Under the pieces are notes generated by a model. It saw only the letters and a program-made list of their open reading frames with translations. It did not search any database and was not told the origin of the DNA. From a virus, in the IMG/VR virus record IMGVR_UViG_3300045988_183746: a DNA stretch of 64,000 nt; one strand, 5' to 3'. The first letter of the stretch is position 1. Each line of letters starts with the position of its first letter. The position numbers and the translations under genes were made by a program. Positions 12,822-51,466 of the stretch are shown in pieces.

Positions 12822-13232
12822 ATGGGAGTCAAACTTAAGTTCCGTCCCTCTTCTTCCAAGGGGAAGAAAGGATCAGTCCATTTTCAGTTTATTTACAGGA
12901 ATGAAATAAGGCATGTCCCGTCCGGATACAATGTATATCCGGATGAATGGCATGATTCTTTTGCATGTATTGTCATACCTGAAAATACAGATTCTGAACG
13001 GAAAGAATATCTGAGGGAGGCGTTCAAGGACTTATCAGAAAAGTTAGCCACTTTCAAAAAGGTTTTTGCTGCACTGAAATGGCAGAAGCGGATTATACCG
13101 TCGATCAGATCATTGAATTATGCTTCAAACCGGCGGCAAACTTTCACTTCCTTGCTTTTGCTCACAAGCTGGTCGGTGAGACCAAACTTGCCGGCAAGAC
13201 AAGAACGGTCGAGACATACCAGACCGCTTTGA
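12822..13232 (+). CDS. Tyrosine recombinase, N-terminal arm-DNA-binding domain ORF (frame 3; part of a frameshifted integrase)
   Basis: MGVKLKFRPSSSKGKKGSVHFQFIYRNEIRHV... resembles the N-terminal arm-binding domain of Bacteroides integrases. The protein-like sequence ends around 13078, where the frame 2 ORF begins. Confidence 0.55.
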   Translation: MGVKLKFRPSSSKGKKGSVHFQFIYRNEIRHVPSGYNVYPDEWHDSFACIVIPENTDSERKEYLREAFKDLSEKLATFKKVFAALKWQKRIIPSIRSLNYASNRRQTFTSLLLLTSWSVRPNLPARQERSRHTRPL

Positions 13233-14029
13233 ACAGTTTCGAGCGGTTCTTGAAAGAAACAGATCGTAACGGGCTGGAAGAGATGGGTAGCGGGCTGGTT
13301 GGTAAATACGGTGAATGGCTCCAGAGAAACGGCATTTGCCTTAACACGATGTCGTTCTATATGAGAAATCTGCGGTCAATGTACAATCAGGCTGTTGCCA
13401 AAGGTGTATTGGAACAACAGCAGCCTTTCAGCAATGTCTATACCGGTTCCAAGGAGGTGGTAAGATTTGCCGTTCCTTTGGATACAATCAGGAGAATACG
13501 CGACTTAGATCTGTCCGCTGATCCCCGTCTGGATTTTGCAAGGGATATTTTCATGTTCAGTTTCTATACCCGTGGCATGTCTTTTATAGATATCGCCAAC
13601 CTGAAAAAGGAGGATTTGAAAAACGGTTTCCTGACGTATCATCCCAGAGAGTCGAACAAGATACTGTCAATCAAATGGGAAAAGCCAATGGCAGACATCG
13701 TAGCCAAATACGCCAAGCATGAAACTCCTTTTCTGTTGCCTATTATCAGCGAGCCAGTGAGTGTCAACAGGAAAGAATACACAAATATACTTCACGCCAT
13801 CAATACAAGGTTGAAAAGAATAGGGCTGATGCTAAATCTGGATGTGCCCTTACAAACAAATATGGCCCGGCACGCATGGGCTTTGACAGCCAAGAACATG
13901 AACATACCCATACCGGTTATCTGCGAAGCTCTGGGGCAGAATTCCGAGAACACCACTTTGAGCTATCTGGCGACGATTGAAACGTCTCAGTCAGACAAAG
14001 CGAACAAGAATATTCTTGACTCCCTATAA
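13079..14029 (+). CDS. Tyrosine recombinase / integrase, SAM-like plus catalytic domains (frame 2)
   Basis: 316 aa with the catalytic-region signature HxxR (NMARHAWAL) and the C-terminal Tyr in TLSYLATIE. Fusing it with the upstream ORF gives about 402 aa, typical of Bacteroides integrases. Confidence 0.8.
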   Translation: MAEADYTVDQIIELCFKPAANFHFLAFAHKLVGETKLAGKTRTVETYQTALNSFERFLKETDRNGLEEMGSGLVGKYGEWLQRNGICLNTMSFYMRNLRSMYNQAVAKGVLEQQQPFSNVYTGSKEVVRFAVPLDTIRRIRDLDLSADPRLDFARDIFMFSFYTRGMSFIDIANLKKEDLKNGFLTYHPRESNKILSIKWEKPMADIVAKYAKHETPFLLPIISEPVSVNRKEYTNILHAINTRLKRIGLMLNLDVPLQTNMARHAWALTAKNMNIPIPVICEALGQNSENTTLSYLATIETSQSDKANKNILDSL

Positions 14030-14528: not shown

Positions 14529-15614
14529 ATGAAATCAAACAAACATATAGTGACCGGTGGCAAGCCGGTCCTGCCTGAGATTCTTTTTCCGGATACTCAT
14601 CTGACATTCGCCGATTTTTTCTGCGGATGTGGTGGACTCTCTTTGGGCATGATTCAGTCTGGCATGAAATGTGTCTCGGCAATGGATTTTTCGCCTGAAG
14701 CCATCTGTACATACTGGCTGAACCTTTGTGTTAAAGGATGGAGTCATCTTTGGATCTCTCCCGAGAATGAAAAGGGAGCCAAGACTTTGCTGAAGATTCT
14801 AAAGACCGGTGAGACCGCAAACTGGTTCTTCCAACATGAAATCCCCGATAACTGGTTGCAATCGCCCAAACCGATGCCCTGCCTGAACCTGTTCCTGTAT
14901 AGTATTCTGGATTTGGAACCGGAAGAATGGTTGGAAATTATGGGACTTCGTCCCGGAGATATATCGGTCTTTGTCGGCGGCCCTCCCTGCCAGGGATTCA
15001 GCACGGCAAACACCAACCGGAGTGTATTTGACGAACGGAACCAGTTGCCGCTTCGCTATATATACTATGCAAAGGTCTGCAAACCCAACTATGTGATAAT
15101 CGAGAATGTTCCGGGACTGATAACACTAGGCAAGACTAAAGACAAGAAAACCGGCCCGTTTGTCGATTGGATAGCACAGGCTTTTGACGAAGCAGGATAT
15201 GATATGACATACAAAGTCCATAAATGTGAAGAATATGGTATTCCTCAGACGCGCAAAAGGGTCATATTTTGCGGCATACGGAAAGATGCCAACCTACCGG
15301 CCATAGAATTTCCTGAGGGTGAGTATGGCGGGAGGAGCGGTAAACAGCCCGTACAGACAGTACGTGAGGCCATCGGGCACTTGCCTCCTATCAGAGCCGG
15401 AGAGTCGTGGACCGGCGACAAGGTAAAACCCTATGGATATGATGCAGCGGACGGGTATGTCATCTGTCCACACTGTCTTCAATATAATTTGGAGCAACGG
15501 AAAAAATGTATCCATTGCGGTACGTCTCTGGAGAACCCGATTCGAGGGGGTGTCTTTGTAGTTCCCGGCATGGGTGTGATGGCGAATATGACCAAGCCGA
15601 TAAACAGGGTATAA
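14529..15614 (+). CDS. dcm: DNA (cytosine-5)-methyltransferase with C-terminal zinc-ribbon
   Basis: Motif I FFCGCGGLSLG (FxGxGG), motif IV GGPPCQGFS, motif VI ENVPGL and motif VIII QTRKRV; C-terminal CPHC...CIHCG. Confidence 0.9.
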   Translation: MKSNKHIVTGGKPVLPEILFPDTHLTFADFFCGCGGLSLGMIQSGMKCVSAMDFSPEAICTYWLNLCVKGWSHLWISPENEKGAKTLLKILKTGETANWFFQHEIPDNWLQSPKPMPCLNLFLYSILDLEPEEWLEIMGLRPGDISVFVGGPPCQGFSTANTNRSVFDERNQLPLRYIYYAKVCKPNYVIIENVPGLITLGKTKDKKTGPFVDWIAQAFDEAGYDMTYKVHKCEEYGIPQTRKRVIFCGIRKDANLPAIEFPEGEYGGRSGKQPVQTVREAIGHLPPIRAGESWTGDKVKPYGYDAADGYVICPHCLQYNLEQRKKCIHCGTSLENPIRGGVFVVPGMGVMANMTKPINRV

Positions 15615-16035: not shown

Positions 16036-17034
16036 ATGAACTACGAGGAAATATCCAAATTCAATGATGCCAACAAAATTGACTGTTGGCCGGGGAATAT
16101 CAAAAAGGTGAAGGCTGTATTCGATAGCCAGCCTTTGGAATTTGTAAAAGAATACTATCAGTTCTGGAAACAAGAATACGAAGTACGAAAGAAGAAAGGT
16201 GGATACGGCTGCTCCAGCCTGCACCGGTCCGTAGCCGTGATGGAAAAATACATCAGGGAGCGTGGCTTGGGAATTGATGTGTCTTACCAGAAGTTGATAG
16301 CACAGTTGGAAGATATATTGAGCAAGTTCAAAGATACGTATATTGGCAAAGTCAAAGGTTTTGCCGAAAAACAGTATGAATGGGCTTTAAAATTGAACTC
16401 ATGGAACGAACTGGACTGGATTGCGGACTCATTTACCCAGACGACACGCATACGATGTGGATATCTTCAATGTGCAGTAGTTCCTTATAAGGCGGCTAAC
16501 GGACAGACCATTTGGGTGAATTTTTGTTCTGCCTTAGGTAGATATGAGGTACGGAACCTGAAAGAAGTAGATCCGACAGCATCGTATATTTACTACAATG
16601 TCAGCGGAAAAGGAAAGACCAATATCATAGTAAGATCGCCTGAACTTGCCGAAGCCAGAATGTGTGACAGTGAGAAACTTGAGACCCCGGCACGGCCAAT
16701 TCCTAGTAAAAGACAAAAGCTATTTAAGAATATTGAGGGTACCACCAAATTTGCCATAAACGGAAAAGAAATATGGGTGGAGCAAGCCCTAAAGGATGCC
16801 GAAGACAAGTTCAAGGCTGACATTCGGGTGTTGGCAAACAAGATCCGCGAAAGAAGTATCAACGAAGAGAATCTTTCTTTGCTATATGCTAGTGATGATC
16901 CGAAACATATTCAAATCAGTATCTCGGATGGTAATATTACCCTGTACGCAAGGAGCATCTTTGCAGCAGCAAATTCCATATTGTTATCACCGCATTTTCG
17001 GTTCATAGTGACCGAAACCTCCAAAACAAAATAA
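16036..17034 (+). CDS. Hypothetical protein (possible cognate partner of the Dcm methyltransferase, unproven)
   Basis: ORF track 16003..17034 begins with a TTG that lies inside the promoter motif; the first ATG (MNYEEISKF) is at 16036. Confidence 0.6.
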   Translation: MNYEEISKFNDANKIDCWPGNIKKVKAVFDSQPLEFVKEYYQFWKQEYEVRKKKGGYGCSSLHRSVAVMEKYIRERGLGIDVSYQKLIAQLEDILSKFKDTYIGKVKGFAEKQYEWALKLNSWNELDWIADSFTQTTRIRCGYLQCAVVPYKAANGQTIWVNFCSALGRYEVRNLKEVDPTASYIYYNVSGKGKTNIIVRSPELAEARMCDSEKLETPARPIPSKRQKLFKNIEGTTKFAINGKEIWVEQALKDAEDKFKADIRVLANKIRERSINEENLSLLYASDDPKHIQISISDGNITLYARSIFAAANSILLSPHFRFIVTETSKTK

Positions 17035-17252
17035 CCCATTCCGACCGTCGGTTGCTTGTGAAAGTAGCCGGCGGTGTTTTTCGGATGTATGCTCAGGGCG
17101 ATGCCCCCCACTACCTAACAAACCAAATTCAACTAATCCCGCTTATTTAGGAAAGTACGAGCCTGCTGTTTACATACCATTAAACACCTGTATATCTATA
17201 TATTACACTCATTATAACTATATTTGTAGTAGAAATTAAAACCCCCAGTAAT

Positions 17253-17465
17253 ATGGCATGGTTAGCAGTAAATAAGAATGGAACAGAAATGGTTTTCCCC
17301 GAAAAGCCTGTATATGACGGCTGGGATTGGGAACATGTAGAGTTTATGGAGTTCGAGTGTGAGCAATTCTATGTCCCTACTGGGATTGAACTTCCCAAGG
17401 GCTCAATCCAAAAACTTGCCGGACGAATTATAACATTCAGTGACGGACCAATAGAAATCAAATGA
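17253..17465 (+). CDS. Hypothetical small protein
   Basis: 70-aa ORF. Confidence 0.45.
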   Translation: MAWLAVNKNGTEMVFPEKPVYDGWDWEHVEFMEFECEQFYVPTGIELPKGSIQKLAGRIITFSDGPIEIK

Positions 17466-17487
17466 TTCAAATAACCAAAACAGTAAT

Positions 17488-17973
17488 ATGGCAATAAATT
17501 TGAACAATTATGTAAAACAGGAAATAAAAACCTCCTATGCAATAAAGGTAGGCGATATTTTTTCCGACATGGGCGAGTCATTCGTCTTTCGGTGCGATAC
17601 AATAAAAGATGGTTTCCTGTATTGCACATTATTAGAGGGTGACGCGGACGGACTGAAGCCCGAAAAAGATGGCAAGTATATGTTATGTATTTGCGATGTA
17701 ATATGGCAAGTCCTGACTCCTGCCAAATATAAAGCGTATGTCCTTTTTGGGGATGATATTTGCATCGCATACAATAACGGATCATTGGAAGAATTATTGA
17801 ATGATCCCGATGGAAAGTGCTTTGACATTACAGTCCGTGAGTTTGAAACAGAAGCAGAACGCGATGCGTACCTGTTAGGAATCAATGATCATGAGGACTG
17901 GGTTGGTCATGCGGTGCTGACAGAGAAGTTTGACTCCGAAGAGATTAAACTTCTTGAGAGCAAAGGGTACTGA
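17488..17973 (+). CDS. Hypothetical protein
   Basis: 161-aa ORF. Confidence 0.6.
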   Translation: MAINLNNYVKQEIKTSYAIKVGDIFSDMGESFVFRCDTIKDGFLYCTLLEGDADGLKPEKDGKYMLCICDVIWQVLTPAKYKAYVLFGDDICIAYNNGSLEELLNDPDGKCFDITVREFETEAERDAYLLGINDHEDWVGHAVLTEKFDSEEIKLLESKGY

Positions 17974-18736
17974 CTAGTGAAGTCCGGGCAGTTATCCCTG
18001 CCCGGCAGCGTGTCCCTTTCCGGAATCTGAACACAGATTCCTATCTTACGATTTCGATAAAATATATTCAATAATAAATATTATTCAGAGTTATCGTATG
18101 TAACAAATTAATATTCATATAGTTAATAGCTTCAAGTATAACTTTTCAAGTTATATCCCCCTATATCTGATTTTCGACATATAACTGGACATTTTAATAA
18201 TTACCACATATAAGTTAACAGGGGAAATTGTGTTAATGTATAAATATTGTTATTTTTTGTTCCATGTGAATATACAAACTAACCGAAGTCGCTATATTTG
18301 CATAATAAGACCTTATAAGTAATTAGTATCTTAAGAACTTTGACCATGAATAAAATAAAAAAACACATTCCTAATAAGAAATGTTTGAGTAACAATCGTT
18401 TCGGAAATATAAAAATAAAGATTCTAAATATGCCCCAATATACCGATAAGGAGTTAACTCAATCCTATATAAAAAACATGAAAAAAATAGAAGCCATTTT
18501 GAAATCATAATACAATAGCTTGTTCCAAAAAAGTATAGCCTACTATATAAGGAATATATTTTCTGTTTATCACCTTTATTCCTATCAGAAACAGGATTAT
18601 GGATTTTCGGTGTACTTAATGCTATATTCTTAATATATGCGACTTTATATTTTATGACTGAGAATAATGATAAAGAATGAGTTTGTTGTAACGAATAATA
18701 TATTTTTTAGCAATTAGTATCATAAAAACTTACACT

Positions 18737-18925
18737 ATGGACATCATTTCTATTTTTTCGTCAGTTGCAGGATTAGAAGAACTCATTGTCTTTTTAGTAT
18801 TTATTGTGCTTCCCCTTGTTATTTTATGTTCAAGTCGTCCCACCTGTAGCTTTGAAGAAAGTGCATGGAAAGAGATCACTGAGGATGATGATAAGAATGA
18901 ACACCCAAATGATGATAAAAAATAG
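18737..18925 (+). CDS. Hypothetical small membrane peptide (hydrophobic N-terminus, acidic C-terminus)
   Basis: 62 aa, lying in a very AT-rich island. Confidence 0.3.
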   Translation: MDIISIFSSVAGLEELIVFLVFIVLPLVILCSSRPTCSFEESAWKEITEDDDKNEHPNDDKK

Positions 18926-18940
18926 TAAGCTTAATATTAG

Positions 18941-19213
18941 TTATTTCTTCCAATTATTACACGATTTAACAGCTTTAATTATAAGAATACCAAAACCTGT
19001 AAGCAAAAATAGAAGGATTATTAAGTAATCATTACTACAGCCTTTTTCTTCTAAAAGAAAGAAATACTCAGAATACATAATGATGGAAGAAATATAGGCC
19101 AACACAAGATATTCCGGCATCTTTGATTTCAAATGTATTTTTTTATTTCCCATACTAAAGAAAACTAAAAAGAATGGGACTGTACTTAGTGAATATAATA
19201 TTGAATTTCGCAA
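18941..19213 (-). CDS. Hypothetical small membrane protein (about 3 TM helices)
   Basis: 90-aa ORF in the AT-rich island; one of the few minus-strand ORFs. Confidence 0.3.
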   Translation of the reverse strand: MRNSILYSLSTVPFFLVFFSMGNKKIHLKSKMPEYLVLAYISSIIMYSEYFFLLEEKGCSNDYLIILLFLLTGFGILIIKAVKSCNNWKK

Positions 19214-19925
19214 GGAAACAATAATATTATGGATGAATATATATATTATCAGTATTGTAATTATCTATATTAGCGAAAATAAAAATTGTATATATTATTA
19301 TACATAGCAAATGAAGTTTTGGGATTTCATTTCTGCTTAATACACTGTTAAAGAAAACAAATAAGCGAATGATATTGTCCATAGTGTAAGTTCTATATAG
19401 ACTTTGCCTAGCGTTTTAACGAGTCATAAGCCAATATGCCATCAAACGGCCATCAAATATTATGCGTTGTATATTAACGGTTTACGATTCGTCAAACAAT
19501 ATGTTTTCTACCTAATATATCCTCCTTATTAATTCTGTATGATGGGCTAAGATCGTTTTATTTGGTAAAAAATAAAATCAGGTGATACTTATATTCTATC
19601 GGCAAGATGTTTTCTATGAATTTTTCCAACAGGCCGTCCCTGTCAGTCATAAGGCCCCTGAATACTATAATCCCTTCCACCTTCCATATCACTTTGCAAA
19701 ACAGCAGAACAAGGGAATAAGGTTGGAATGAAGGAAATAGGTTAAGACAACATACTGATTGCTTCCGTTTTCATGCAGCGTCCCGCATATCCTTTCACAA
19801 TAGCAGGCTGAATCTTATATTCTCCTTTCATCAAAAAACGAGCAGGTACGCAAACTTTCCGTGGCAATTATTTGTATATATAATAAATCACAGGTATTTT
19901 TGCCACAGGATTAAAGAAGACACGC

Positions 19926-20279
19926 ATGAAGACAATGAATCAAATTATTGGCGATAATCTGAAAAGAATCAGAGAATTGTCCGGCTTCACGCAGGAGCAG
20001 ACAGCAAAGTCTGTCGGCATCGAGCGTTCGGCATACAGCAATTATGAGGGAGGGACAAGGGAAGTCCCTTATGATGTCTTGGAACGGATTTCAAATATAT
20101 TCGGCTGTGAGCCTTTCATCCTATTTGAGGATAATATTCAAGCGGACAATGAGATTCTGGCCGCTGCCTTTAGAATCTCCGATTTGGAGGATGATGACTT
20201 AAAGGAAATTGCGAATTTCAAGGATATTGTGAAATCATACCTGAAAATGGAACGGATAGCCCAAAATGAAGCCGAATAA
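19926..20279 (+). CDS. XRE-family helix-turn-helix transcriptional regulator
   Basis: IGDNLKRIRELSGFTQEQTAKSVGIERSAYSNYEGG is a classic Cro/C1-type HTH. Confidence 0.85.
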   Translation: MKTMNQIIGDNLKRIRELSGFTQEQTAKSVGIERSAYSNYEGGTREVPYDVLERISNIFGCEPFILFEDNIQADNEILAAAFRISDLEDDDLKEIANFKDIVKSYLKMERIAQNEAE

Positions 20280-21000
20280 GTTTGTTATAGAAAAACAGGT
20301 GGCAGCCTTTCGTATGGACAACGGGCTAGGAGCGTCCGAACCTGTCACACTGAAAAGCCTGCTTCTGAAACTGAATGTGCTTACAGTGTTCAGACCCCTC
20401 TCCGACAGCTTTTCCGGAATGTGCCTGAAGGACAATTCCGGACATCGGTTCATGCTTGTCAATTCCAACCAGCCCATGGGAAGGCAGCACTTTACCATAG
20501 CACACGAATTATATCATTTGTTTATCGAGGAAAAGCCCACACCCCATAAATGCAATCCCGGCAACAGTAAAAATGTCGTGGAACAAAGTGCCGACATGTT
20601 CGCTTCTTCATTTCTGATGCCAGAAGCCGGCATTTGTCAGTTGACACCGGAAGACGAGTTAAGGGGCAAAAACGTTTCTTTAGGAACGATATTGAGACTT
20701 GAGCACTATTTCTCCGTTTCCCGTTCGGCTTTGTTGTACAGGCTGCTGAACCTTGGCATTATAACGGAATCCGCCCGTTCCAAATTGGCGGAAACAAGTG
20801 TGAAATACTCTGCAAGATGTTTTGGGTACGATACAGCTCTGTATGAAGCCGCCAACGAGGGTCTGGTGATAGGTGATTTCGGAGAAAAAGCCCGTAATTT
20901 GTTTGACCGGGGCAAAATCTCAGAGGGTCATTACATGGAATTACTTCATAAAATCAATGTCGATGGAATGCAGGAAAACGAAAATAGTACTGGATGCTGA
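20266..21000 (+). CDS. ImmA/IrrE-family zinc metallopeptidase (DUF955)
   Basis: FTIAHELYHLF HExxH motif; overlaps the XRE gene by 14 nt. Confidence 0.85.
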   Translation: MKPNKFVIEKQVAAFRMDNGLGASEPVTLKSLLLKLNVLTVFRPLSDSFSGMCLKDNSGHRFMLVNSNQPMGRQHFTIAHELYHLFIEEKPTPHKCNPGNSKNVVEQSADMFASSFLMPEAGICQLTPEDELRGKNVSLGTILRLEHYFSVSRSALLYRLLNLGIITESARSKLAETSVKYSARCFGYDTALYEAANEGLVIGDFGEKARNLFDRGKISEGHYMELLHKINVDGMQENENSTGC

Positions 21001-21487
21001 TGTGATTATCCACTTCATCGAGGCAGACTGCTTTTCATTGCTTCCTGACATATTCCCTGAATATGAGTATGTGGTTCTGGATGTAGTCTATAATGAGGTT
21101 GCCAAAAACAATAAGACCAAGGGCTTCATTGACAATTACCTTCATTTCTTCCCAAAACTGAAAAAAGAGGAATTTGCGCCCAAGGGGGAATCCATAAAGG
21201 AATACTTCCTGCTGCAACGGACATTGGGAAAAGGGGAAAGCGCATGTATGGTATATTGCAGGGACAATCAGGATGTTTTAGGGAGCAGCAATTTGAGGGA
21301 CATAAATAGCTACTGCCTGGCAAACAACATAACCTATCTGACTACAATCGATTTCCTGTATTACGCCTATTGCCGAAAGAAAATGACAGGGCAGGAATGT
21401 GCCGAATTTATGCAAGCCGTCAATGATGCGGGCAGCAAGCTTCCCATGATTGACATAACCCAATATGTATGCACCGTGCAAATCTGA
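20963..21487 (+). CDS. PIN-like domain protein (putative nuclease/effector)
   Basis: Starts MECRKTKIVLDADVIIHFIEAD (PIN-like N-terminal acidic motif), with a later GKGESACMVYCRDNQD...LTTIDFL region. Begins inside the ImmA 3' end in another frame (ORF track 20873..21487). Confidence 0.55.
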   Translation: MECRKTKIVLDADVIIHFIEADCFSLLPDIFPEYEYVVLDVVYNEVAKNNKTKGFIDNYLHFFPKLKKEEFAPKGESIKEYFLLQRTLGKGESACMVYCRDNQDVLGSSNLRDINSYCLANNITYLTTIDFLYYAYCRKKMTGQECAEFMQAVNDAGSKLPMIDITQYVCTVQI

Positions 21488-21931
21488 CCGTATCCGGTTT
21501 GACGGTCATCAACATCTTAAGTAATTTGCCATGGATACTAATTCAAACAGACTGACTGCGGAAGAAATCAGGAAACTCCGTGAGATGAATTTCTGCAAAG
21601 AACCGGGGTTTGTAAAGGCTGAAGCTGTGTTGGCATCGGAAGCCGGAGAGCCGGGAAGTCCTGAACGCAAAGACTTCGATGCGAAAGCACGCGCCTGGTA
21701 TAATGGAGAGTCCTTGTGTGACAGAAATATGGAGGCTAGAACCGGCTCCCCCAAATGATACTGAAAAACCGAGTATCACCTACACATATACCAATTCTAT
21801 AAAGAAGGAGAGGCTGATTTGCAGTTGCCCTCCTTCATGTCCATAGCAGACAATCGGTGTCCGATTCTACGTCCTGGTATGGACCCGATATGAATCCTAC
21901 TCCGACTTCTGCTGTTTTTTTCTAAAAAAAA

Positions 21932-21962
21932 TCCAAATTTCCTCCTTGAAATTTGGATTTTT
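21932..21962 (+). terminator. Bidirectional rho-independent terminator (10-bp perfect stem TCCAAATTTC/GAAATTTGGA flanked by A-run and T-run)
   Basis: Perfect inverted repeat with a 6-nt loop, A8 upstream and T5 downstream. Confidence 0.55.
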
Positions 21963-22744
21963 GGATTGGAACTCTTTTTTATAGATTACTCTTCTCTCCT
22001 TTTTCTTTATTAATTTCTTTTTGCTCTCTTCGGGAGTGAATTTCTGAATCTATGATTCATCAATAATTTGGAAAGGAATAGTGTTATTTATTGTATTACT
22101 CTATATAGTATATTTCTACACATGCGGACATCTATTTTATAGGTTTTCTGCTTATATGGTAAAGTAATTTATAAATGGTAATATATATAATATACATATA
22201 TACAATAAGTTATTGTTAGATTATAACTATATTTGTATATCAAATTAAACGAATTATCAACTATTTAAAATCGAAATTATATCAGTTATGAACTATTTAC
22301 TTCTGTTTTTATTTATTGCTTGCTTTGTAAGCATGTCATTGGGTTTTGCATGCTCATTATGCCATTGATTGCAGCCGCTATTTGTAAAGGCATATTAGGT
22401 TATTATAATGATGAATTACTTAGACCAGAAAGACTTTTCGGAGCGTTCTGCCTAATGATAGCAGGGTTGGTCGGTACACTAATATTTATTTATTAAACAT
22501 AACCAGAATATATATTTTAAATAGTTATGAAGAGTCTATTGACTTTTATCATCAAAAGAAATAGACTCTTTATACTATAATTATATTCAAAAACAGTGTC
22601 AATAAAATAGTTTTTCATTTATCCTGATTGATCCTTTTGTATCGCTTTCTCAATTTCACTAAATCTTTTTCCAAAGTATTTAAATTTTTCTGTATCAACT
22701 GTATATTCTGATTGTTGCTTTAATATTGTTTTACTAATTCGCCT

Positions 22745-23332
22745 ATGGTCAATATAGCGTTAGCATATAGTAGATTTAAGGGATATGTCCCCTATACGCA
22801 ACAGGAAACAAGAATGAACCGGGAGATAAAGAATGTGGTCAGAAATGCAAGGGAGGTTAACCGCCGGCTTCATTACCACCGGTTGATGACCGGATCATAC
22901 AAGGCCCTGTTCCTTATGTTCGGGCAATACATATCCCGGGAAGACCAGAAGATGACCCTGAGGACGCTGCAAGGGGAGTCACCGGAGGACCTGGGAAATG
23001 AAACAGGGCATAGCAAAAGCTTCGTGGTCCATTCCTGCGAACGTGCCATTAACGAGATCCATTACTATTGTTCCCTTTTACGTGGCAATCCGGAGGGCAT
23101 GGGAATCCTGGTGGACCTGATTGGAGAGATTATCGAGAAGGAAGAGGAAAAGAAGAAGAAGGAAGTCTGCAATGGGGTCCTCAAAAGGAAGGAACCGTTG
23201 ACCGACGGAAGAAAAGAGCAAGCATTCACCTATCCTACGGATGTGGAATACCGGGAAGATGATTTGTGGATGGATACAGGCTGTCAGGAATTTGCCGGGG
23301 ACAGCAGCATTACTGAAATGGAAGAAGAATAG
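22745..23332 (+). CDS. Hypothetical protein
   Basis: 195-aa ORF; an alternative start lies at M23. Confidence 0.5.
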   Translation: MVNIALAYSRFKGYVPYTQQETRMNREIKNVVRNAREVNRRLHYHRLMTGSYKALFLMFGQYISREDQKMTLRTLQGESPEDLGNETGHSKSFVVHSCERAINEIHYYCSLLRGNPEGMGILVDLIGEIIEKEEEKKKKEVCNGVLKRKEPLTDGRKEQAFTYPTDVEYREDDLWMDTGCQEFAGDSSITEMEEE

Positions 23333-23828
23333 CCGGGCACCTTTCATTCCCTTCTGGAAAACAGTATGCCGGGCAACCGTTGTTTCAAGCGGTTGTCCGG
23401 CAGCTTTTATTCTGGAACAAGGCCGCTTCCTTCAGACAAAAGACGGGATATCCTCCATCACTTCCGGGAACGCACCCACGTTCCCTTTTCCCTTGTCTGT
23501 ATGTTTATACCGCATATATATCCATCTATGCAAACTTGTGATTTCCGAATTCATTACATTTCCATTCAAGCCAAATGTTAAAAGCGGAAGGTCATGCCAA
23601 GCTCTATCATTGTCAACAAATTTTCAAATTTGATTTTTTCGGACTGAATTGTTAGTTATACCCAATTGATGGTTTGGTACTAAAAAGTATATTTTTCCCG
23701 CTTGAATGGAAAAGTTTTAACCATCCGTTATCATACTGATATTATGATAGTTACCGTATATTCACATATTATATAGCTACCTTTGTAGTATAAGATAATA
23801 GAATACTAACCGCCTAAAATTAAGGAAT

Positions 23829-24722
23829 ATGAATGATTTGCTTAGTCTGTTTGACGAAATAGAAACCAAGCCCGTAAACATGATTCCAGAAACTGACCGG
23901 ATGATTGTCGATAATTACTGGAACCTGTTTATGGAAAAATTCAACGGATTGCGGGCTATGTGGGCTGAATTTGTGGAGAGAGACAAATCCAATACAAACG
24001 ACAAGTTCAAAATCAACTCTTTGAACTATATATCAAGTCCTTTCTATTCTCATGTATGGGAAGAGAATTTGGATCGTTTCGATTATACGTTCAAATATGA
24101 CATAGTAAATTGCGAAAAGTTGATTCAAAAACTATTACGAAGTATCGAATCAAAGGTTTGCGATTATTTCTCCAAAACTTATGGCTGTAATATAGAATCT
24201 GATCACTGCCTTTCAGAATCTTTATTTAAAGAAGAACGATATAATGGTGAGTTACCTTCATTAGATTTGATTCTGGAGCATATTATCAGTCAGAATGACG
24301 GTATGTCATTTGAAGATAAGGGCGATCATGACACAAAATTGAATATTGGCAATCACCTTAAACATAAAAACATCAAATTGACATCAAAAACAGTAACAAT
24401 CGAATATGCTTTCCATACAAGGTATTACAGTTTTGAACCGCATTGGGAGGATGTGGAAAAAATACTGGATGCCGTGGTTTACTGTTTCTTCCAAAGTCAC
24501 GATTTATTTCATATCCTCTCAAATGCGGATGAATCACTTTTAAGGCGTATGGAAGCCGGAAGTGCGTTATCCATTTCCAGTGAAGCGTCCAAAATGGAAC
24601 AGATTAAATTATTCAAGAACCAAAAAATGTCCATCAAATTTCGAAAAGCCGAAGAAGCCCAGCTCTTTTACAATTTTGCTACCGAGATTAAAGAGATGGC
24701 AAACAAAAAATATCAACGATAA
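23829..24722 (+). CDS. Hypothetical protein
   Basis: 297-aa ORF immediately upstream of the MTase-helicase gene (13-nt gap). Confidence 0.65.
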   Translation: MNDLLSLFDEIETKPVNMIPETDRMIVDNYWNLFMEKFNGLRAMWAEFVERDKSNTNDKFKINSLNYISSPFYSHVWEENLDRFDYTFKYDIVNCEKLIQKLLRSIESKVCDYFSKTYGCNIESDHCLSESLFKEERYNGELPSLDLILEHIISQNDGMSFEDKGDHDTKLNIGNHLKHKNIKLTSKTVTIEYAFHTRYYSFEPHWEDVEKILDAVVYCFFQSHDLFHILSNADESLLRRMEAGSALSISSEASKMEQIKLFKNQKMSIKFRKAEEAQLFYNFATEIKEMANKKYQR

Positions 24723-24734
24723 TCATTCCTTAGC

Positions 24735-27700
24735 ATGTACAAAGATTTACAACAGATAGTTCCGACCCAAAAACGTGCAGAGATAAACGATAAGATTCTC
24801 TATTGTATTGACACACATAACAAGGCTGTCACTTCCGAGGTAGTATATAACTGCTACACGGGAGCCGGAGGGCTGCACAATCTGTCATTTAATGATTTCA
24901 ACAACTTCCACGATTATACGGAGGCTAAAAAAGAGTTTGAAATGGGGCAGTTCTTTACCCCTCATGCGGTTTGTCAGCTTATGGTTGAAATGGCGGCTCC
25001 CTCCCAGTCCGATCGGGTGGCCGATTTCTGCTGTGGCATGGGCAATTTCTTCAACTGGCTGCCGGATGGGACGTACACCTACGGTTCCGAACTTGACCCA
25101 AAGGCGGTAAAGGTGGCACGCTTCTTGTATCCGGACGCACATATCGAATGCCGGGATATTCTCTATGCCGCCCCGGAAGGCAAGTTTGACTTTGTTTTTG
25201 GCAATCCCCCATTTAATCTGAAATGGCAAGTGAACAACCTGCCTGTTTTGTCACAACTCTATTATTGCCAGAAAGCTGCCGAATATCTCAATCCGGGTGG
25301 ACTGTTGCTGCTTGTTGTTCCGGCTTCATTCCTCGCTGACGGGTTTTGGAACAAGTCTATGATATCCGAGATAAACGACAGGTTCAACTTTATCGGGCAG
25401 TGTAAGCTGGAATCCGATACGTTCGGCGAATACCAGGTGACCATTGAGACTAAGATAATGGCTTTTCAGCGAAAATCCGACCATCTGGAGAATGTGGCAT
25501 ACTCTTCTGCATTTGTTTCCCTTATGGATCTTCGTACCCGTGTGGCACAAGCCCGTGAGACCAAGCATGAGTTACGCCTGAAACTTGCTCGTGAAGCTAA
25601 GGAGAATTCAGAGCTTCCTGAATTTGAATACAAGCTGGCCAAGTATATGTATGAGATACGCATCCAGCCAAGCATCAAGGACAAGTACGGTCAATGTCTG
25701 GCTTTTGTCGAGAAGTTCCGTACACAGAAACCGCCAGAGAATGCGACCGAGAAAGAATACAAACATTGGTTGCAGCACGTGAGAATTTCCGAGAAGCAAG
25801 TACTTAACCGTTTGCGCAAGATTGTAAGAGGACAAAACGACATCAAGACTGACCGCATTGCACTTGTAAGACAGTCTTCCGGTTTTGCCATCAAAACATA
25901 CAGTTCCAGGATGGGCAAGGTTCTGAAGGAACTGAATGTTTCCCCGAAACTCTTCCTGAATATTCACGACTTGTTGCTGTGGGGTGATACCGTAAAGTCC
26001 TACTTTTCTCCTATGGCACAGACTGTCATAGAAGGGGTGGATGCCTGCGAGAAAGTTCTTTCCCGTAAACGCAAGGAAATGGAACGCCAACAACAGGCAT
26101 TCTGCGACATGCTGCCATCCGAAAACATGAAAGTGTATGTCGATAAGCTGACATTCAAGAAAGCGGACGGTACTCAGTATGCACTTACTCCCCTTCAAAA
26201 GAGCGATGCCATAAAGCTGTTCTCCAAAAGATACAGCCTAGTAAACTGGCAACAGGGGTGCGGAAAAACAGTCGTGTCTTTCCTCTATGGCAAAATGCTG
26301 TTGGACAATCAGAAGGTACGCAACGTCATCGTGGTGGCTCCGGCGGTGGCTACCAACCTTACATGGTCGGAGTTCCTGACCGTTCAGGGTGTGGCTTTCC
26401 GTAACATCAACCGTAAGGACGAAATCAACACCGCACAGCCAGGCGAGTTCCTGATCCTATCGACATCCATGCTTGGAAAAAGAAAGCGTGAGCTGAGACA
26501 GTTCCTCAGGCTGACCGCCCGGAAGCACTGCCTGATTTTTGATGAATCAGACGAAATCTCCAATGCGGCCAGCAAGCGGACACGGCATATGCTAAATCTG
26601 TTCCGACACCTGCCGTACAAGATGCTGTGTACCGGAACAACAACACGTAACGATATATCAGAGATCTATTCCCAACTGTCCTTACTGTACAATAACTCCT
26701 ACAATTTCATATCCATGAGCAGGTATCGGTACGAGCAGGACGAGGACGGGGATTTTGTTCCGGTTGACAATGAATATCTGTACCGACCCCTTCCCGTCAA
26801 ACAGGGGAACCGGATTTTCCGTTCGCTGTTCTCACCGGGCAAGAAATCGGTTTTTGGCATCCGCAAGAACTCACAGGACATCTACAACAGCGATGACTTG
26901 AAGAAGATTCTGGATTATACTATCATTACCAGACGGTTTAAGGAGGTGGCCGGCGACAAGTACGAGGTAATCAATGACCAGATTCTCCCCGGAGTAGGAG
27001 AAAAGGCGGTATATGACAAAATCCTGAATGATTTCTACGAGATTCTGCCACGATATTTTCAGTCAACAGGTGACAGCCGGAAAGATGCCGCCCTCAGACT
27101 GGTGCGCATCATAGAGCTGTTGCGTCGGGCTTGTTCCACAGCTCACCTGATGCCGGGGTATTTCGGATCGGAGTTTCCGGCAAAGGCCGGCAAGATTATG
27201 GGACTGGTGCGTGAAAGCAAAGGTCTGGTTGCAGTAGGATGCATCTCTTTGGAATCTCTGTCTTTCTATACGGATCTGTTCAAACGGTTCATTGACCGTC
27301 CGCTGTTTGTCATTGACGGCAGTGTGCCCTTTAACCGCCGCAAGAAAATCATTGCGGAGTTCCAGCAGTCGGGCAACGGTGTTTTGTTGAGCACCCAACA
27401 AAGTTTGAGTTCATCAGTAAATATTCCGAGCTGCAACGAAGTAATCATTGAAGCCTTACAGTGGAATATTCCACGGATGGAGCAATACTACATGCGTTTT
27501 ATCCGGTTCGACAGCACGGATTACAAGCACGTACATTTTGTGACTTATGCGGACACGATTGAACAGAATATACTTGCTCTGGTCATGTGCAAGGAGAAGC
27601 TGAACGAATTTATCAAATCTGGTTCTATACATGAGGACGAAGAGATTTTTTCCGAGTTCGGTATATCAGCCGATCTGTTCGACAACCTCATGCAAAAGCA

Positions 27701-27755
27701 ATATGACGAAAAAGGCCAGCTGTATCTTAGTTGGGGTGAGCAGAAGGTAGTTTGA
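24735..27755 (+). CDS. N6-adenine DNA methyltransferase fused to SNF2-family helicase (DarB/polyvalent-protein-like)
   Basis: N-terminal motif I VADFCCGMGNFF and motif IV FGNPPFN. C-terminal half has Walker A GCGKT, DExD-like LIFDESDE, SNF2 motif III LCTGTTTRND and helicase-C motifs (LLSTQQS...QYYMRFIRFDS). Confidence 0.9.
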   Translation: MYKDLQQIVPTQKRAEINDKILYCIDTHNKAVTSEVVYNCYTGAGGLHNLSFNDFNNFHDYTEAKKEFEMGQFFTPHAVCQLMVEMAAPSQSDRVADFCCGMGNFFNWLPDGTYTYGSELDPKAVKVARFLYPDAHIECRDILYAAPEGKFDFVFGNPPFNLKWQVNNLPVLSQLYYCQKAAEYLNPGGLLLLVVPASFLADGFWNKSMISEINDRFNFIGQCKLESDTFGEYQVTIETKIMAFQRKSDHLENVAYSSAFVSLMDLRTRVAQARETKHELRLKLAREAKENSELPEFEYKLAKYMYEIRIQPSIKDKYGQCLAFVEKFRTQKPPENATEKEYKHWLQHVRISEKQVLNRLRKIVRGQNDIKTDRIALVRQSSGFAIKTYSSRMGKVLKELNVSPKLFLNIHDLLLWGDTVKSYFSPMAQTVIEGVDACEKVLSRKRKEMERQQQAFCDMLPSENMKVYVDKLTFKKADGTQYALTPLQKSDAIKLFSKRYSLVNWQQGCGKTVVSFLYGKMLLDNQKVRNVIVVAPAVATNLTWSEFLTVQGVAFRNINRKDEINTAQPGEFLILSTSMLGKRKRELRQFLRLTARKHCLIFDESDEISNAASKRTRHMLNLFRHLPYKMLCTGTTTRNDISEIYSQLSLLYNNSYNFISMSRYRYEQDEDGDFVPVDNEYLYRPLPVKQGNRIFRSLFSPGKKSVFGIRKNSQDIYNSDDLKKILDYTIITRRFKEVAGDKYEVINDQILPGVGEKAVYDKILNDFYEILPRYFQSTGDSRKDAALRLVRIIELLRRACSTAHLMPGYFGSEFPAKAGKIMGLVRESKGLVAVGCISLESLSFYTDLFKRFIDRPLFVIDGSVPFNRRKKIIAEFQQSGNGVLLSTQQSLSSSVNIPSCNEVIIEALQWNIPRMEQYYMRFIRFDSTDYKHVHFVTYADTIEQNILALVMCKEKLNEFIKSGSIHEDEEIFSEFGISADLFDNLMQKQYDEKGQLYLSWGEQKVV

Positions 27756-31569: not shown

Positions 31570-33415
31570 GACGGGGGTGTGTCGTAATGCACGATGCACC
31601 CCCTTCTTTTTTCGTTAGCTATAAAAATCAGTTACTCTTCTTTAAGCTGCGATATTTTGACTATTACTTCGGTTTATGTGTTCCCAGCATCTAAATAGAG
31701 CAGCTGTAAGCTCATGAAACAGTTTAATCAGCCAGTTTATACCTTCTTCTTTCATTTTAGCACACATTTTCTTTATATTGAAGGCCATGGCAAAGAAGCA
31801 AAAGTCCATGAAAACCTTATCCTTTCCAAAATGACGGAAACGTTGGTAGTTCATATTGTATTTTATTTGTCCGAACACAGCTTCCGGTTCTATACATCTT
31901 TGTTTTCTATGTTTCAGCCCTTCCTCGGAACAGAGCAACTCTTTGGCTTTCTGCTTGTATCTTCTGAGCCTGTGATTCAGTTCTATCGTTCTGTTTCCTT
32001 TTGCTTTAAAACATCGGCATCTTAGCGGACAGCCTTCACATCTGATAGCTCTGTACCTGGCATTTTCGCTTACATATCCAGATGCAGTTTTCTGATGTCT
32101 GGTCCCTATCCTCTGCATCCTTTGTCCCATGGGGCAGATACAATAGTCATGTTCTTCATTGTAGTAGAAGTTTTCTGCCTTGAACGGATCCGGTTTGAAT
32201 CTCGGCCGCTGCTCCATGTGGAAATAGTTATATTTGACGTAAGCTTCCATGCCGTTCTCTGACATGAAGCGGTAATTCTCCTCGGAACCATAGCCGGAAT
32301 CGGCAACCACCGTATGAGCCATCCGGTCATACCTGTTTGAAAAAGATTGCAGGAAAGGGATCATGGTCAGTGTATCCGTAGGGTTCGGGAAGAGTGCAAA
32401 ATCGGTGATGAACTGGTTCTCGGTGCCGATCTGAAGGTTGTAACCGGGCTTCGTCTGCCCGTTACGCATGGCATCCTCCTTCATTCTCATGAAAGTTGCG
32501 TCCTTGTCCGTCTTGGAATAGGAATTCCTTTCTTGCAGCGTGTCCAGATGACTGTCGTATTCCTGGAGTTTGTCCCTATGTTCTTCCAGCTCCTTCAGCT
32601 GTTTGCGTCTCTTTTTCAGCTCAGTCTTTTCCTCCTTGGTGGAAGGCTCGGGAACCTGTTCCAGCACATGACGTAATTCTCCCGCCATTTCGGTCAGCAT
32701 GGCCGGAGTGAACTCAACCTCCTCATTACTTTCCGAAGACTTTTCTTGGGCGATGACATCGTCTATCTGCCCTAGCAGGACATGTATCTTCTTCATCAGG
32801 CGTTCACGGTTCCGCTCAACCGTTTTTCGCCAAACGAAAGTATACTTGTTGGCTTTGGATTCAATCTTTGTCCCGTCAATGTATTCCACGTTCAGGCTGA
32901 TGAAGCCTTTGGAAGAGAGAAGGAGTACGGTTTGGGTAAACACCTCGTTGATTTCCTTCTTCACCCGATTGCGGAAACGGTTGATGGTAATGAAATCCGG
33001 TTTCTCATATCCGGCAAGCCAGATATAATGAATGTCACGATGAAGGAGTTTCTCTATTTTCCGGCAGGAGTAGATGTTGTTCATGTAGGCATACAGAATG
33101 ACCTTGAGCATCATTTTGGGATGGTAAGGGCTACGACCGCATTCTTTATATAACTTCCTGAAACTTTCAAGATTCAAGCTTTCAACCAGAGCGTCAACCA
33201 TGCGCACCGGATCGTTTTCTGCAATATCCTCATCAATTCTTTGAGGAAATAGCACTGTTTGATTGGGGATGTAAGGACGATAATGTATCTTTGCCATAGT
33301 AAAATTTGTATGCTTAAAGATACAAAATCTTTAGGTAATAACAAAGCCCCAGCTTGTGAAAGTCGGGGCTTTGTGCATAAACAACAAGAAGGTGTGCTTT
33401 TTGACACACCTTCTT
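31570..33415 (-). mobile_element. IS1182-family insertion sequence (ends approximate)
   Basis: A single 551-aa transposase. Both flanks carry GGTGTGTC..GCAC-containing palindromic ends (31573-31600 and the palindrome AAGAAGGTGTG...CACACCTTCTT at 33386-33415). Confidence 0.65.
31642..33297 (-). CDS. IS1182-family DDE transposase
   Basis: MAKIHYRPYIPNQTVLFPQRIDEDIAENDPVRMV... N-terminus and overall architecture typical of IS1182/IS5-superfamily transposases. Confidence 0.88.
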   Translation of the reverse strand: MAKIHYRPYIPNQTVLFPQRIDEDIAENDPVRMVDALVESLNLESFRKLYKECGRSPYHPKMMLKVILYAYMNNIYSCRKIEKLLHRDIHYIWLAGYEKPDFITINRFRNRVKKEINEVFTQTVLLLSSKGFISLNVEYIDGTKIESKANKYTFVWRKTVERNRERLMKKIHVLLGQIDDVIAQEKSSESNEEVEFTPAMLTEMAGELRHVLEQVPEPSTKEEKTELKKRRKQLKELEEHRDKLQEYDSHLDTLQERNSYSKTDKDATFMRMKEDAMRNGQTKPGYNLQIGTENQFITDFALFPNPTDTLTMIPFLQSFSNRYDRMAHTVVADSGYGSEENYRFMSENGMEAYVKYNYFHMEQRPRFKPDPFKAENFYYNEEHDYCICPMGQRMQRIGTRHQKTASGYVSENARYRAIRCEGCPLRCRCFKAKGNRTIELNHRLRRYKQKAKELLCSEEGLKHRKQRCIEPEAVFGQIKYNMNYQRFRHFGKDKVFMDFCFFAMAFNIKKMCAKMKEEGINWLIKLFHELTAALFRCWEHINRSNSQNIAA

Positions 33416-51434: not shown

Positions 51435-51442
51435 TATCTTTG
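51435..51442 (+). promoter_or_regulatory. Bacteroidota -7 promoter element TATCTTTG
   Basis: The ORF-track start (TTG, 51440) lies inside this motif; the real ATG is at 51467. Confidence 0.5.
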
Positions 51443-51466
51443 TATCAAACGATTAACAATAAACAC

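What the first reader, a model, noticed from the sequence alone, without database searches (positions are those of the whole stretch)
19926..21487. Overlapping XRE-HTH / ImmA-IrrE peptidase / PIN-like triad preceded by a 2-kb AT-rich island
Three genes overlap each other (14-nt and ~38-nt overlaps), implying translational coupling. They are an XRE repressor, a DUF955 HExxH metallopeptidase (the anti-repressor protease logic of ICEBs1 ImmR/ImmA and of RosmerTA antitoxins) and a downstream PIN-like putative nuclease. An HTH plus peptidase pair controlling a PIN effector would be a compact damage- or invasion-sensing toxin or regulatory switch on this element. The module sits right after the most AT-rich non-coding stretch in the window (18.0-19.9 kb).
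Basis: partly seen in the sequence, partly recalled or inferred. Interest (0 to 1): 0.6.

Follow-up and report, generated by a model that had tools for sequence, protein, structure and literature searches.

The report
Protease-gated PIN toxin cassette
Three overlapping genes form a self-contained cassette, common in gut Bacteroidales, in which a repressor and a partner protease probably control a PIN-type RNA-cutting toxin; this kind of system was predicted years ago, so it is a clear but fairly ordinary new example.

Summary
Three co-directional genes overlap by 14 nt and 38 nt.

- g1 (19926-20279) is an XRE helix-turn-helix repressor.
- g2 (20266-21000) is an M78 ImmA/IrrE/CapP-type zinc peptidase.
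- g3 (20963-21487) has a confidently predicted PIN nuclease fold, and its acidic residues are conserved.

The triad is conserved as a unit, overlaps included, in about 80 Bacteroidales loci and in three deeply divergent relatives. The flanks are unrelated and there is no conserved fourth gene. DNA homology to other copies runs only from 19847 to about 21490, so this is a mobile 1.65-kb cassette.

The cassette carries its own conserved operator, GTGGCA-N33/34-TGCCAC, which brackets a Bacteroides-type promoter.

g1 keeps an invariant Phe82-Arg83, the site at which CapP cleaves CapH. g2 keeps HExxH, the zinc-binding Glu and a cysteine that aligns with the CapP cysteine switch. No GAF sensor domain is predicted in g2.

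Most likely mechanism: an autorepressed module in which the peptidase cleaves the repressor and unleashes the toxin.

HTH + DUF955 + PIN systems were predicted in 2009 and 2017, and a fused version (VapBC52) was characterised in 2026. This is a new member of a known kind. The AT-rich island is context only and is not part of the module.

The parts
19847..21494 (+). Extent of the mobile three-gene cassette (promoter/operator plus g1-g2-g3)
   Evidence: blastn of window 18500-23000 against the other triad loci. Homology never starts before 19847 and never extends past 21494. Flanking genes are unrelated among 74 loci.
19861..19867 (+). Left operator arm GTGGCAA
   Evidence: The inverted repeat GTGGCA-N33/34-TGCCAC occurs once in the window, against 0.05 expected. 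It occurs once in 75 of 94 loci, always about 20 nt upstream of the g1 ATG. It is conserved in alignments of both divergent clades.
19871..19902 (+). Putative Bacteroides-type promoter: -33 TTTG (19871-19874) and -7 TATTTTTG (19895-19902), 20 nt apart
   Evidence: Read from the sequence and conserved. The match to the Bacteroides TTTG / TAnnTTTG consensus is from my own knowledge and is not a tool result.
19900..19906 (+). Right operator arm TTGCCAC, overlapping the -7 box
19926..20279 (+). g1: CapH-like XRE helix-turn-helix repressor (117 aa). Predicted cleavage site is Phe82|Arg83 (codons 20169-20174).
   Evidence: Pfam HTH_19/HTH_3 at 1e-12. PADLOC capH at 2e-14 over the full length, and PDC-M69A at 2e-5. 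The 'aFR' motif is invariant in 74 distinct homologues and in distant triads. CapH is cleaved at Phe82|Arg83.
20266..21000 (+). g2: CapP/IrrE/ImmA-type M78 zinc peptidase (244 aa). Features: HELYH 20503-20517, Cys96 20551-20553, Glu106 20581-20583, and a conserved helical C-terminal module (about residues 165-230) where CapP has a GAF domain.
   Evidence: Pfam Peptidase_M78 at 5e-15. PADLOC capP at 6e-25 and PDC-M69B at 6e-18. Invariant H80 E81 H84 C96 E106. The model (pLDDT 85) is closest to CapP 7t5t at 3e-6, then PprI/IrrE, over 175 columns only. Cys96 and Glu106 align with the cysteine in CapP's FQC stretch and the Glu in its IEAQAD stretch.
20963..21487 (+). g3: PIN-domain nuclease (174 aa) of the COG2405/DUF3368-like clade, the predicted toxin/effector. 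Putative active-site residues are D11, E45, E92, D113 (plus D13, D130).

Best explanation
This is a self-contained, autoregulated three-component toxin module: a CapH-like repressor, a CapP/ImmA-like zinc peptidase and a PIN ribonuclease.

Proposed steps (all inferred, none demonstrated):
1. g1 oligomerises through its C-terminal helix. It binds the two arms GTGGCAA/TTGCCAC that bracket the promoter and represses the operon.
2. g2 is held inactive by Cys96 occupying the zinc site, as in the CapP cysteine switch.
3. A stress or invasion signal releases the switch. In the relatives CapP, IrrE and VapB52 that signal is single-stranded DNA. Here it is unknown, because no GAF domain is predicted.
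4. Active g2 cuts g1 between Phe82 and Arg83. This separates the DNA-binding domain from the oligomerisation helix.
5. The operon is derepressed, and any PIN held in a complex is freed. The PIN nuclease then cleaves cellular RNA and arrests growth. The outcome could be abortive infection or stabilisation of the carrying DNA.

Shown here: the gene identities, the fold, the conserved catalytic and cleavage-site residues, the conserved operator, the conserved overlaps, and the mobility of the cassette as a unit.
For: Domain identities.

The triad is kept as a unit.
- g1 and g2 sit directly upstream of g3 in every locus that has upstream DNA.
- The same holds for relatives only about 30% identical: P0214, P0260, P0188.
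- Overlaps are conserved.
- There is no conserved neighbour. Seventy-four loci give 696 flank clusters, and the largest spans 4 loci.
- Homology is limited to 19847-21494.

Operator.
- It occurs once in the window against 0.05 expected.
- It occurs once per locus in 75 loci, at a fixed distance from g1.
- Distant triads have arms of different sequence (TTGTTACA/TGTAACAA) in the same layout.

Cleavage site. Phe82-Arg83 is invariant and has the same numbering as the mapped CapH site.

Peptidase. HExxH, Glu106 and Cys96 are invariant. Cys96 aligns with the cysteine in CapP's FQC stretch, which I take to be the switch cysteine.

PIN acidic residues are conserved across the family.

Precedent.
- HTH + DUF955 + PIN three-component systems were predicted in PMC2701414 and PMC5499597.
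- In VapBC52, a fused HTH-peptidase antitoxin self-cleaves at an FR motif in the presence of ssDNA.
Against: - No experiment exists on this triad. Toxicity of g3, cleavage of g1 and DNA binding are all inferred.
- No GAF domain is predicted in g2. In CapP and IrrE that domain forms half of the ssDNA-binding groove, so the trigger cannot simply be transferred.
- It is unknown which protein, if any, neutralises the PIN. A purely transcriptional switch would need leaky PIN expression to be harmless.
- The mapping of the acidic residues onto the VapC active site rests on their positions relative to the predicted secondary structure. It is not a residue-level structural alignment. hhalign matched only the first strand.
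- Few flanking genes are defence genes, so a defence role is not supported by context.
Confidence: 0.7

Rival explanations
1. The module is an anti-phage defence system. It would be a CapH/CapP-type regulator whose only cargo is a PIN effector, acting by abortive infection, and equivalent to the PADLOC candidate PDC-M69. This is a claim about biological role and is compatible with the mechanism above.
For: All three proteins hit the three PDC-M69 models. g3 also hits PDC-S70. CapH/CapP regulate many immune operons. RosmerTA, which has a Zn-peptidase antitoxin, defends against phage. Some copies lie next to BREX or methyltransferase genes, and one copy of this same element lies next to a type I R-M system.
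Against: - The PDC-M69C hit is weak: E 0.008 over residues 6-59 only.
- PDC systems are candidates, and no paper in the library mentions PDC-M69.
- Most of the 95 sampled flanking genes are ordinary (SusD, TonB receptors, transporters, metabolism), and only a handful are defence genes.
- In CapH/CapP systems the regulator was not needed for phage protection.
Confidence: 0.3
2. g1 and g2 are an ImmR/ImmA-type switch that controls the life cycle (excision or transfer) of the mobile element in this window. On this reading the PIN gene is a passenger.
For: The window is a mobile element carrying an integrase-like gene, methylases, PcfJ and LPD1/LPD5. The best solved-structure sequence match of g1 is the ICEBs1 ImmR HTH domain at 1.4e-5. 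ImmR/ImmA belong to the same superfamily.
Against: - The same triad sits in dozens of unrelated contexts, including between housekeeping genes.
- Homology ends at the g3 stop codon and 79 nt upstream of g1.
- The operator pattern occurs only once in 64 kb, at the triad's own promoter.
- The PIN gene is never absent from the loci examined, though those loci were retrieved by searching for g3.
- Only 3 relatives were found in 2.9 million viral contigs.
Confidence: 0.07
3. The peptidase itself is the antitoxin or sensor. Its conserved, GAF-less C-terminal module would bind and inhibit the PIN. The signal would be something other than ssDNA, for example a phage protein. g1 cleavage would be secondary.
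For: - The C-terminal block (about residues 183-230) is almost invariant. It is shared with PDC-M69B (match to residue 232) but not with capP or RmrA models, whose matches end at 164-186.
- No GAF domain is predicted: the model is helical there and the structural match to CapP covers 175 of 244 columns.
- The g2 and g3 reading frames always overlap.
- In VapBC52 the peptidase-bearing protein is the PIN-binding antitoxin.
Against: No complex prediction could be run, so no interaction evidence exists. Model confidence in residues 201-244 is low (pLDDT 30-76). In VapB52 it is the N-terminal HTH domain, not the peptidase part, that binds the toxin.
Confidence: 0.2

Closest known systems
CapH/CapP regulators of CBASS and other immune operons (Lau et al. 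2022, bioRxiv 10.1101/2022.04.27.489752; Calloji et al. 2026)
   Same: - Separate XRE repressor and M78 peptidase genes. g1 matches the capH model over its full length and g2 matches capP.
- CapP is the best structural match of g2.
- Phe82-Arg83 is conserved at the mapped CapH cleavage site.
- The cysteine and the zinc-binding Glu align.
   Different: - No GAF domain is predicted. A conserved helical module takes its place.
- The regulated cargo is a single PIN gene translationally overlapped with the peptidase gene, not a multi-gene immune operon.
- ssDNA activation is untested.
VapBC52 of Mycobacterium tuberculosis (NAR 2026, PMC13273310)
   Same: It combines an XRE HTH, an IrrE/CapP-like peptidase with a cysteine switch, and a PIN toxin. 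A conserved FR motif is the cleavage site. Cleavage is proposed to free the toxin.
   Different: There the HTH and peptidase are fused in one antitoxin that cuts itself. Here they are two proteins, so cleavage would be in trans. The PIN proteins are not close relatives: the g3 profile found no solved structure by sequence.
Predicted three-component HTH + DUF955 (COG2856) + PIN-like systems (Makarova 2009, PMC2701414; Matelska 2017, PMC5499597)
   Different: Those were catalogue-level predictions. They did not define operators, cleavage sites or this Bacteroidales clade.
RosmerTA (Millman et al. 2022) and PADLOC candidate PDC-M69
   Same: Both use a Zn-peptidase/HTH antitoxin logic. g1 and g2 match the N-terminal and middle parts of RmrA models. 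All three genes match PDC-M69A/B/C.
   Different: RmrA is a single fused protein, and g3 matches no RmrT model. The PDC-M69C match is marginal, and PDC-M69 is itself unvalidated.
ImmR/ImmA of ICEBs1 and IrrE/DdrO of Deinococcus
   Same: Same superfamily, and the same principle that a protease cleaves a repressor.
   Different: Those pairs control an element's life cycle or a DNA-repair regulon. Here the pair travels with a PIN gene as a closed cassette.

Membership tests
CapH/CapP-type regulator pair | XRE HTH repressor with a C-terminal oligomerisation helix that carries the Phe|Arg cleavage site | tested here: met
   The capH model matches residues 3-102 at 2e-14. F82-R83 is invariant in 74 homologues and in distant triads. 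The CapH site is Phe82|Arg83. Oligomerisation itself was not tested.
CapH/CapP-type regulator pair | M78 zinc peptidase with HExxH and a downstream Glu ligand | tested here: met
   Peptidase_M78 at 5e-15. H80, E81, H84 and E106 are invariant. E106 aligns with the Glu in CapP's IEAQAD stretch, which I take to be the zinc ligand.
CapH/CapP-type regulator pair | Cysteine-switch loop (present in about a third of CapP proteins) | tested here: met
   Cys96 is invariant. It aligns with the cysteine in CapP's FQC stretch, which I take to be the switch cysteine Cys113. Its function was not tested.
CapH/CapP-type regulator pair | C-terminal GAF domain forming the ssDNA-binding groove | tested here: not met
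   The model beyond residue 165 is helical. The structural match to CapP and IrrE covers about 175 of 244 columns. The capP HMM match ends at residue 164.
CapH/CapP-type regulator pair | ssDNA-stimulated cleavage of the repressor | not testable with these tools
   This needs biochemistry.
ImmR/ImmA life-cycle switch of an ICE or prophage | Fixed position in the element, controlling its excision or transfer genes | tested here: not met
   Flanks are unrelated among 74 loci. The cassette is limited to 19847-21494. The operator occurs once in the window. Relatives are rare in viral contigs.
PIN-domain nuclease (VapC-like; COG2405/DUF3368 clade) | PIN fold | tested here: met
PIN-domain nuclease (VapC-like; COG2405/DUF3368 clade) | Conserved acidic active-site residues | tested here: met
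   D11 85/86, E45 84/86, E92 86/86 and D113 82/86 across cluster representatives. Their placement after strands 1, 2 and 4 follows. Residue-level superposition was not available.
PIN-domain nuclease (VapC-like; COG2405/DUF3368 clade) | Match to Pfam PF11848 (DUF3368) | tested here: inconclusive
   Precomputed PF11848 hits exist on about half of the homologues and on distant relatives. The local Pfam scan never returns PF11848, even for those proteins. P0188 gives a sub-threshold PF01850 PIN hit at E 0.001.
RosmerTA | Single fused HTH-peptidase antitoxin RmrA with an RmrT toxin | tested here: not met
   g1 and g2 are separate genes that match different parts of RmrA models. g3 matches no RmrT model.
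PADLOC candidate PDC-M69 | All three proteins match the A, B and C models | tested here: inconclusive
   A at 2e-5 (full length), B at 6e-18 (residues 35-232), C at only 0.008 (residues 6-59).
Type II toxin-antitoxin system | Antitoxin binds and neutralises the toxin; the toxin alone is growth-inhibitory | not testable with these tools

The most novel reading that the evidence does not exclude
The GAF-less peptidase uses its conserved C-terminal helical module as a direct clamp on the PIN toxin, as the sensor of a trigger other than ssDNA, or as both. That would make this a distinct, trans-acting, protease-centred tripartite toxin system. It would act as a widespread anti-phage or anti-invasion switch in human gut Bacteroidales.
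Probability: 0.2. Interest if true: 0.55.

Novelty: new member of a known kind. Interest (0 to 1): 0.3.

Why it matters
The exact PIN protein is recorded in 5,934 blocks of the public assembly collection. Relatives occur across Bacteroides, Parabacteroides, Paraprevotella, Butyricimonas, Odoribacter, Prevotella and Muribaculaceae. It is therefore a very common small module of the gut microbiome that nobody appears to have tested.

The analysis gives unusually concrete handles for testing: an operator, a cleavage site, a switch cysteine and catalytic residues. These could be used to test the long-predicted three-component HTH-protease-PIN design with the parts on separate proteins. They could also be used to ask what replaces ssDNA sensing when the GAF domain is missing.

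It does not change the current picture of such systems.

Tried and rejected
- Direct Pfam, PHROGs and NCBIfam scans of g3 gave nothing.
- A profile of g3 homologues against solved-structure sequences gave nothing at E <= 10.
- hhalign of that profile against Shigella VapC aligned only the first strand, at E 0.36. The active-site mapping therefore rests on the fold and on conservation.
- The AlphaFold-database fold library was not available.
- DNA searches found no match in phage records or plasmid records.
- Rfam on 17000-24500 gave only one sub-threshold chance hit.
- The terminator scan found none, and sigma-70-type promoter hits were at chance level. That scan is not designed for Bacteroides promoters.
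- I tested whether the small downstream ORF 21531-21758 belongs to the module. It occurs only in identical copies of this element, so I rejected it.
- I tested whether the AT-rich island belongs to the module. Homology starts at 19847, and an IS sits inside the island in one copy, so I rejected it.
- I tested whether the segment between the 17-nt inverted repeats in the island is inverted in other copies. It is not inverted in the six examined.
Full report
**1. The observation**

The + strand carries three ORFs: 19926-20279 (117 aa), 20266-21000 (244 aa), and one open from 20873 to 21487.

- Homologues of the third protein are almost all 174 aa.
- Public gene calls on identical copies start at the equivalent ATG.
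- The real start is therefore ATG 20963.

GC content is 0.28-0.29 over 18001-19500. Bin 22001-22500, on the other side of the triad, is slightly lower at 0.27. The triad (GC 0.43-0.46) therefore sits between two AT-rich stretches.

**2. What the three proteins are**

*g1* is an XRE-type helix-turn-helix protein.
- It matches HTH_19/HTH_3 at about 1e-12.
- It matches the PADLOC capH model over its whole length at 2e-14.
- Its closest solved relative by sequence is the ICEBs1 ImmR HTH domain at 1.4e-5.

*g2* is an M78 peptidase.
- It matches Peptidase_M78 at 5e-15 and PADLOC capP at 6e-25.
- H80-E81-x-x-H84, Cys96 and Glu106 are invariant in 29 homologues.
- Its AlphaFold model has pLDDT 85. The closest structures are CapP 7t5t (E 3e-6), then PprI/IrrE.
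- A profile search against solved structures aligns 'PHKC' of g2 with CapP's 'FQC' stretch. It also aligns Glu106 with the Glu in CapP's 'IEAQAD' stretch. From the spacing after HExxH, I take these to be the cysteine-switch residue Cys113 and the zinc ligand Glu129 described.

*g3* has no hit in the local Pfam, PHROGs or NCBIfam libraries.
- Its model is confident, with pLDDT 91.8 and pTM 0.88.
- All 50 best Foldseek matches are PIN domains: VapC, FitB, SMG6 and Utp24.

I aligned 86 full-length cluster representatives that are 26-49% identical to g3. Conservation of the candidate active-site residues is:

| Residue | Kept in (of 86) |
|---|---|
| D11 | 85 |
| D13 | 83 |
| E45 | 84 |
| E92 | 86 |
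| D113 | 82 |
| D130 | 81 |

In the model these residues fall where the VapC acidic residues fall: D11 at the end of strand 1, E45 in the helix after strand 2, E92 at the start of the helix before strand 4, and D113 just after strand 4. This is an inference from positions, not a residue-level superposition. A sequence profile comparison with Shigella VapC aligned only the first strand.

**3. The triad is a unit**

The genome-collection scan found 229 relatives of g3, all in Bacteroidales or in MAGs from gut samples.
- Of the 80 loci kept, every one with upstream DNA has g1 and g2 directly upstream of g3.
- Among the 82 triads measured, g1/g2 overlap by 4-20 nt in all. g2/g3 overlap by 4-167 nt in all but one.
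- Much more distant relatives of g3 show the same three genes: P0214, P0260 and P0188, with profile E-values of 1e-22 to 1e-32. One of them lies between housekeeping genes.

Nothing else is conserved.
- ORFs within 3.5 kb of 74 loci fall into 696 clusters, and the largest is shared by 4 loci.
- The longest flanking genes are a mixed bag: SusD/TonB receptors, transporters, metabolic enzymes, PcfJ/PcfK, a few methyltransferases and BREX genes.
- At the DNA level, similarity between this window and other copies begins no earlier than 19847 and ends by 21494.
- The small ORF 21531-21758 occurs only in identical copies of this element.
- Only three relatives turned up in 2.9 million viral contigs. 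No related DNA is in the phage or plasmid collections.

The module is therefore a 1.65-kb mobile cassette. It is not a regulator of neighbouring genes and not a fixed part of this element.

**4. Regulatory DNA**

Alignments of the 130 nt upstream of g1 show one conserved feature in both divergent clades: GTGGCAA, about 32 AT-rich bases, then TTGCCAC.
- The pattern GTGGCA-N28-45-TGCCAC occurs once in the 64-kb window (19861-19906), against 0.05 expected.
- It occurs exactly once in 75 of the 94 loci held, always about 20 nt before the g1 start codon.
- Between the arms lie TTTG (19871-19874) and TATTTTTG (19895-19902), 20 nt apart. From my own knowledge this fits the Bacteroides -33/-7 promoter consensus. 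The right arm overlaps the -7 element.
- In a distant triad (L087) the arms read TTGTTACA/TGTAACAA in the same layout. Partial or related motifs occur in L092 and L093. That is what one expects if operator and repressor co-vary.

This supports autoregulation by g1. Binding itself is inferred.

**5. Cleavage site**

g1 homologues share an invariant 'aFR' motif (74 distinct sequences). The distant triads keep 'FAFR'.
- In g1 these residues are Phe82 and Arg83.
- Lau et al. mapped CapP cleavage of E. coli CapH between Phe82 and Arg83, in the first helix of the C-terminal dimerisation domain. They showed that R83A blocks cleavage.
- The M. tuberculosis antitoxin VapB52 is a fused XRE-HTH/IrrE-like peptidase paired with a PIN toxin. 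It self-cleaves at a conserved FR motif when given ssDNA.

**6. Where it departs from CapP**

[quoted passage not shown] In g2:
- the structural match stops after about 175 of 244 columns;
- the capP HMM match ends at residue 164;
- the model beyond residue 165 is helical.

The segment from about residue 183 to 230 is nevertheless almost invariant. It is shared with the PADLOC PDC-M69B model, whose match runs to residue 232. The trigger therefore cannot simply be assumed to be ssDNA. This module may bind the PIN or sense something else. I could not test this.

**7. Most likely mechanism**

The most likely mechanism is an autorepressed operon. A signal releases the cysteine switch of g2. g2 cuts g1 at Phe82|Arg83. 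Repression is lost, and any complex with the PIN may also be lost. The PIN nuclease then cleaves RNA and stops growth. I put this at about 0.7.

| Reading | Confidence | Relation to the main mechanism |
|---|---|---|
| Biological role is anti-phage defence | 0.3 | Compatible; weakly supported by context |
| g2 itself is the antitoxin or sensor | 0.2 | A variant of it |
| g1/g2 are an ImmR/ImmA life-cycle switch for this element | 0.07 | A rival; contradicted by the cassette's independence |

**8. Comparison with what is known**

- Makarova et al. (2009) proposed a three-component system of Xre, COG2856 protease and a PIN or RelE toxin.
- Matelska et al. (2017) listed COG2405/DUF3368 PIN domains co-transcribed with HTH and DUF955 genes.
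- RosmerTA is a validated defence system with a Zn-peptidase antitoxin.
- VapBC52 supplies biochemistry for the fused design.
- PADLOC lists a similar triad as candidate PDC-M69. No paper in the library mentions it.

This triad is therefore a new member of a known kind. It is the split, trans-acting version in Bacteroidales, with no predicted GAF domain.

Membership in DUF3368 by Pfam is inconclusive. Precomputed hits exist, but the local Pfam copy never returns that family.

**9. Verdict**

The AT-rich island is only context. Interest is modest at 0.3. The design is already predicted and partly characterised elsewhere. What is new is a very prevalent gut version with precise, testable parts, and an open question about its trigger.

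Noticed in passing
window 18313-19392: The 'non-coding' AT-rich island holds three small ORFs: 18346-18510 (+), 18737-18925 (+) and 19227-19382 (-). Their leaders and start codons are repeated. There is a 36-nt direct repeat at 18313/18704 and a perfect 17-nt inverted repeat at 18727-18743 / 19376-19392. No inversion of the enclosed segment was seen in six other copies.
   Followed up: partly
L004 6512-8202 (window position 19165-19168): One otherwise identical copy of the element carries an IS (DDE_Tnp_1_4 transposase) inserted in the AT-rich island. The window sequence 19165-19168 is present on both sides. The island tolerates disruption.
   Followed up: partly
window 21927-21962: A perfect 15-bp stem with a 6-nt loop, preceded by an A-run and followed by a T-run (AAAAATCCAAATTTC / GAAATTTGGATTTTT). 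It looks like a two-way terminator downstream of the triad and the small ORF 21531-21758. Its only Rfam hit is sub-threshold and probably chance.
   Followed up: no
window 1-64000: The window is a mobile element of gut Bacteroidales. It carries a group II intron RT/maturase (302-1564, -), an LPD1/LPD5 polyvalent protein (2529-4313), an integrase-like gene (13079-14029), a C5 methylase (14529-15614), an N6-methylase/SNF2 helicase fusion (24735-27755), an IS transposase (31642-33297, -), a UvrD helicase (40158-42590), PcfJ (51440-53008) and a weak Rep3_N match (59761-61002, -). The exact g3 protein is recorded in 5,934 blocks of the assembly collection.
   Followed up: partly
L005 13797-20525: In one copy of the same element, the region downstream of the triad is replaced. 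The methylase/SNF2 gene gives way to a NERD/Zn-ribbon gene and a type I restriction-modification system, so this is a variable defence-like slot.
   Followed up: no
window, 14 sites of TTGCCAC: The operator half-site TTGCCAC occurs 14 times in the window, against 7.0 +/- 2.7 expected. Only the pair at 19861/19900 forms the spaced inverted repeat. Whether g1 has secondary sites was not examined.
   Followed up: no
L017 and L035: Triad copies (65-78% identical in g3) lie on contigs of MAGs labelled Lachnospiraceae and Pseudoflavonifractor, the latter a 1.78-Mb scaffold. This is either mis-binning or chimeric assembly, or transfer outside Bacteroidales.
   Followed up: no
proteins P0166, P0234, P0214 and others: The precomputed annotations list PF11848 (DUF3368) for many family members. 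The local Pfam-A copy never returns that family for the same proteins, so the model seems to be absent or changed in that copy.
   Followed up: yes
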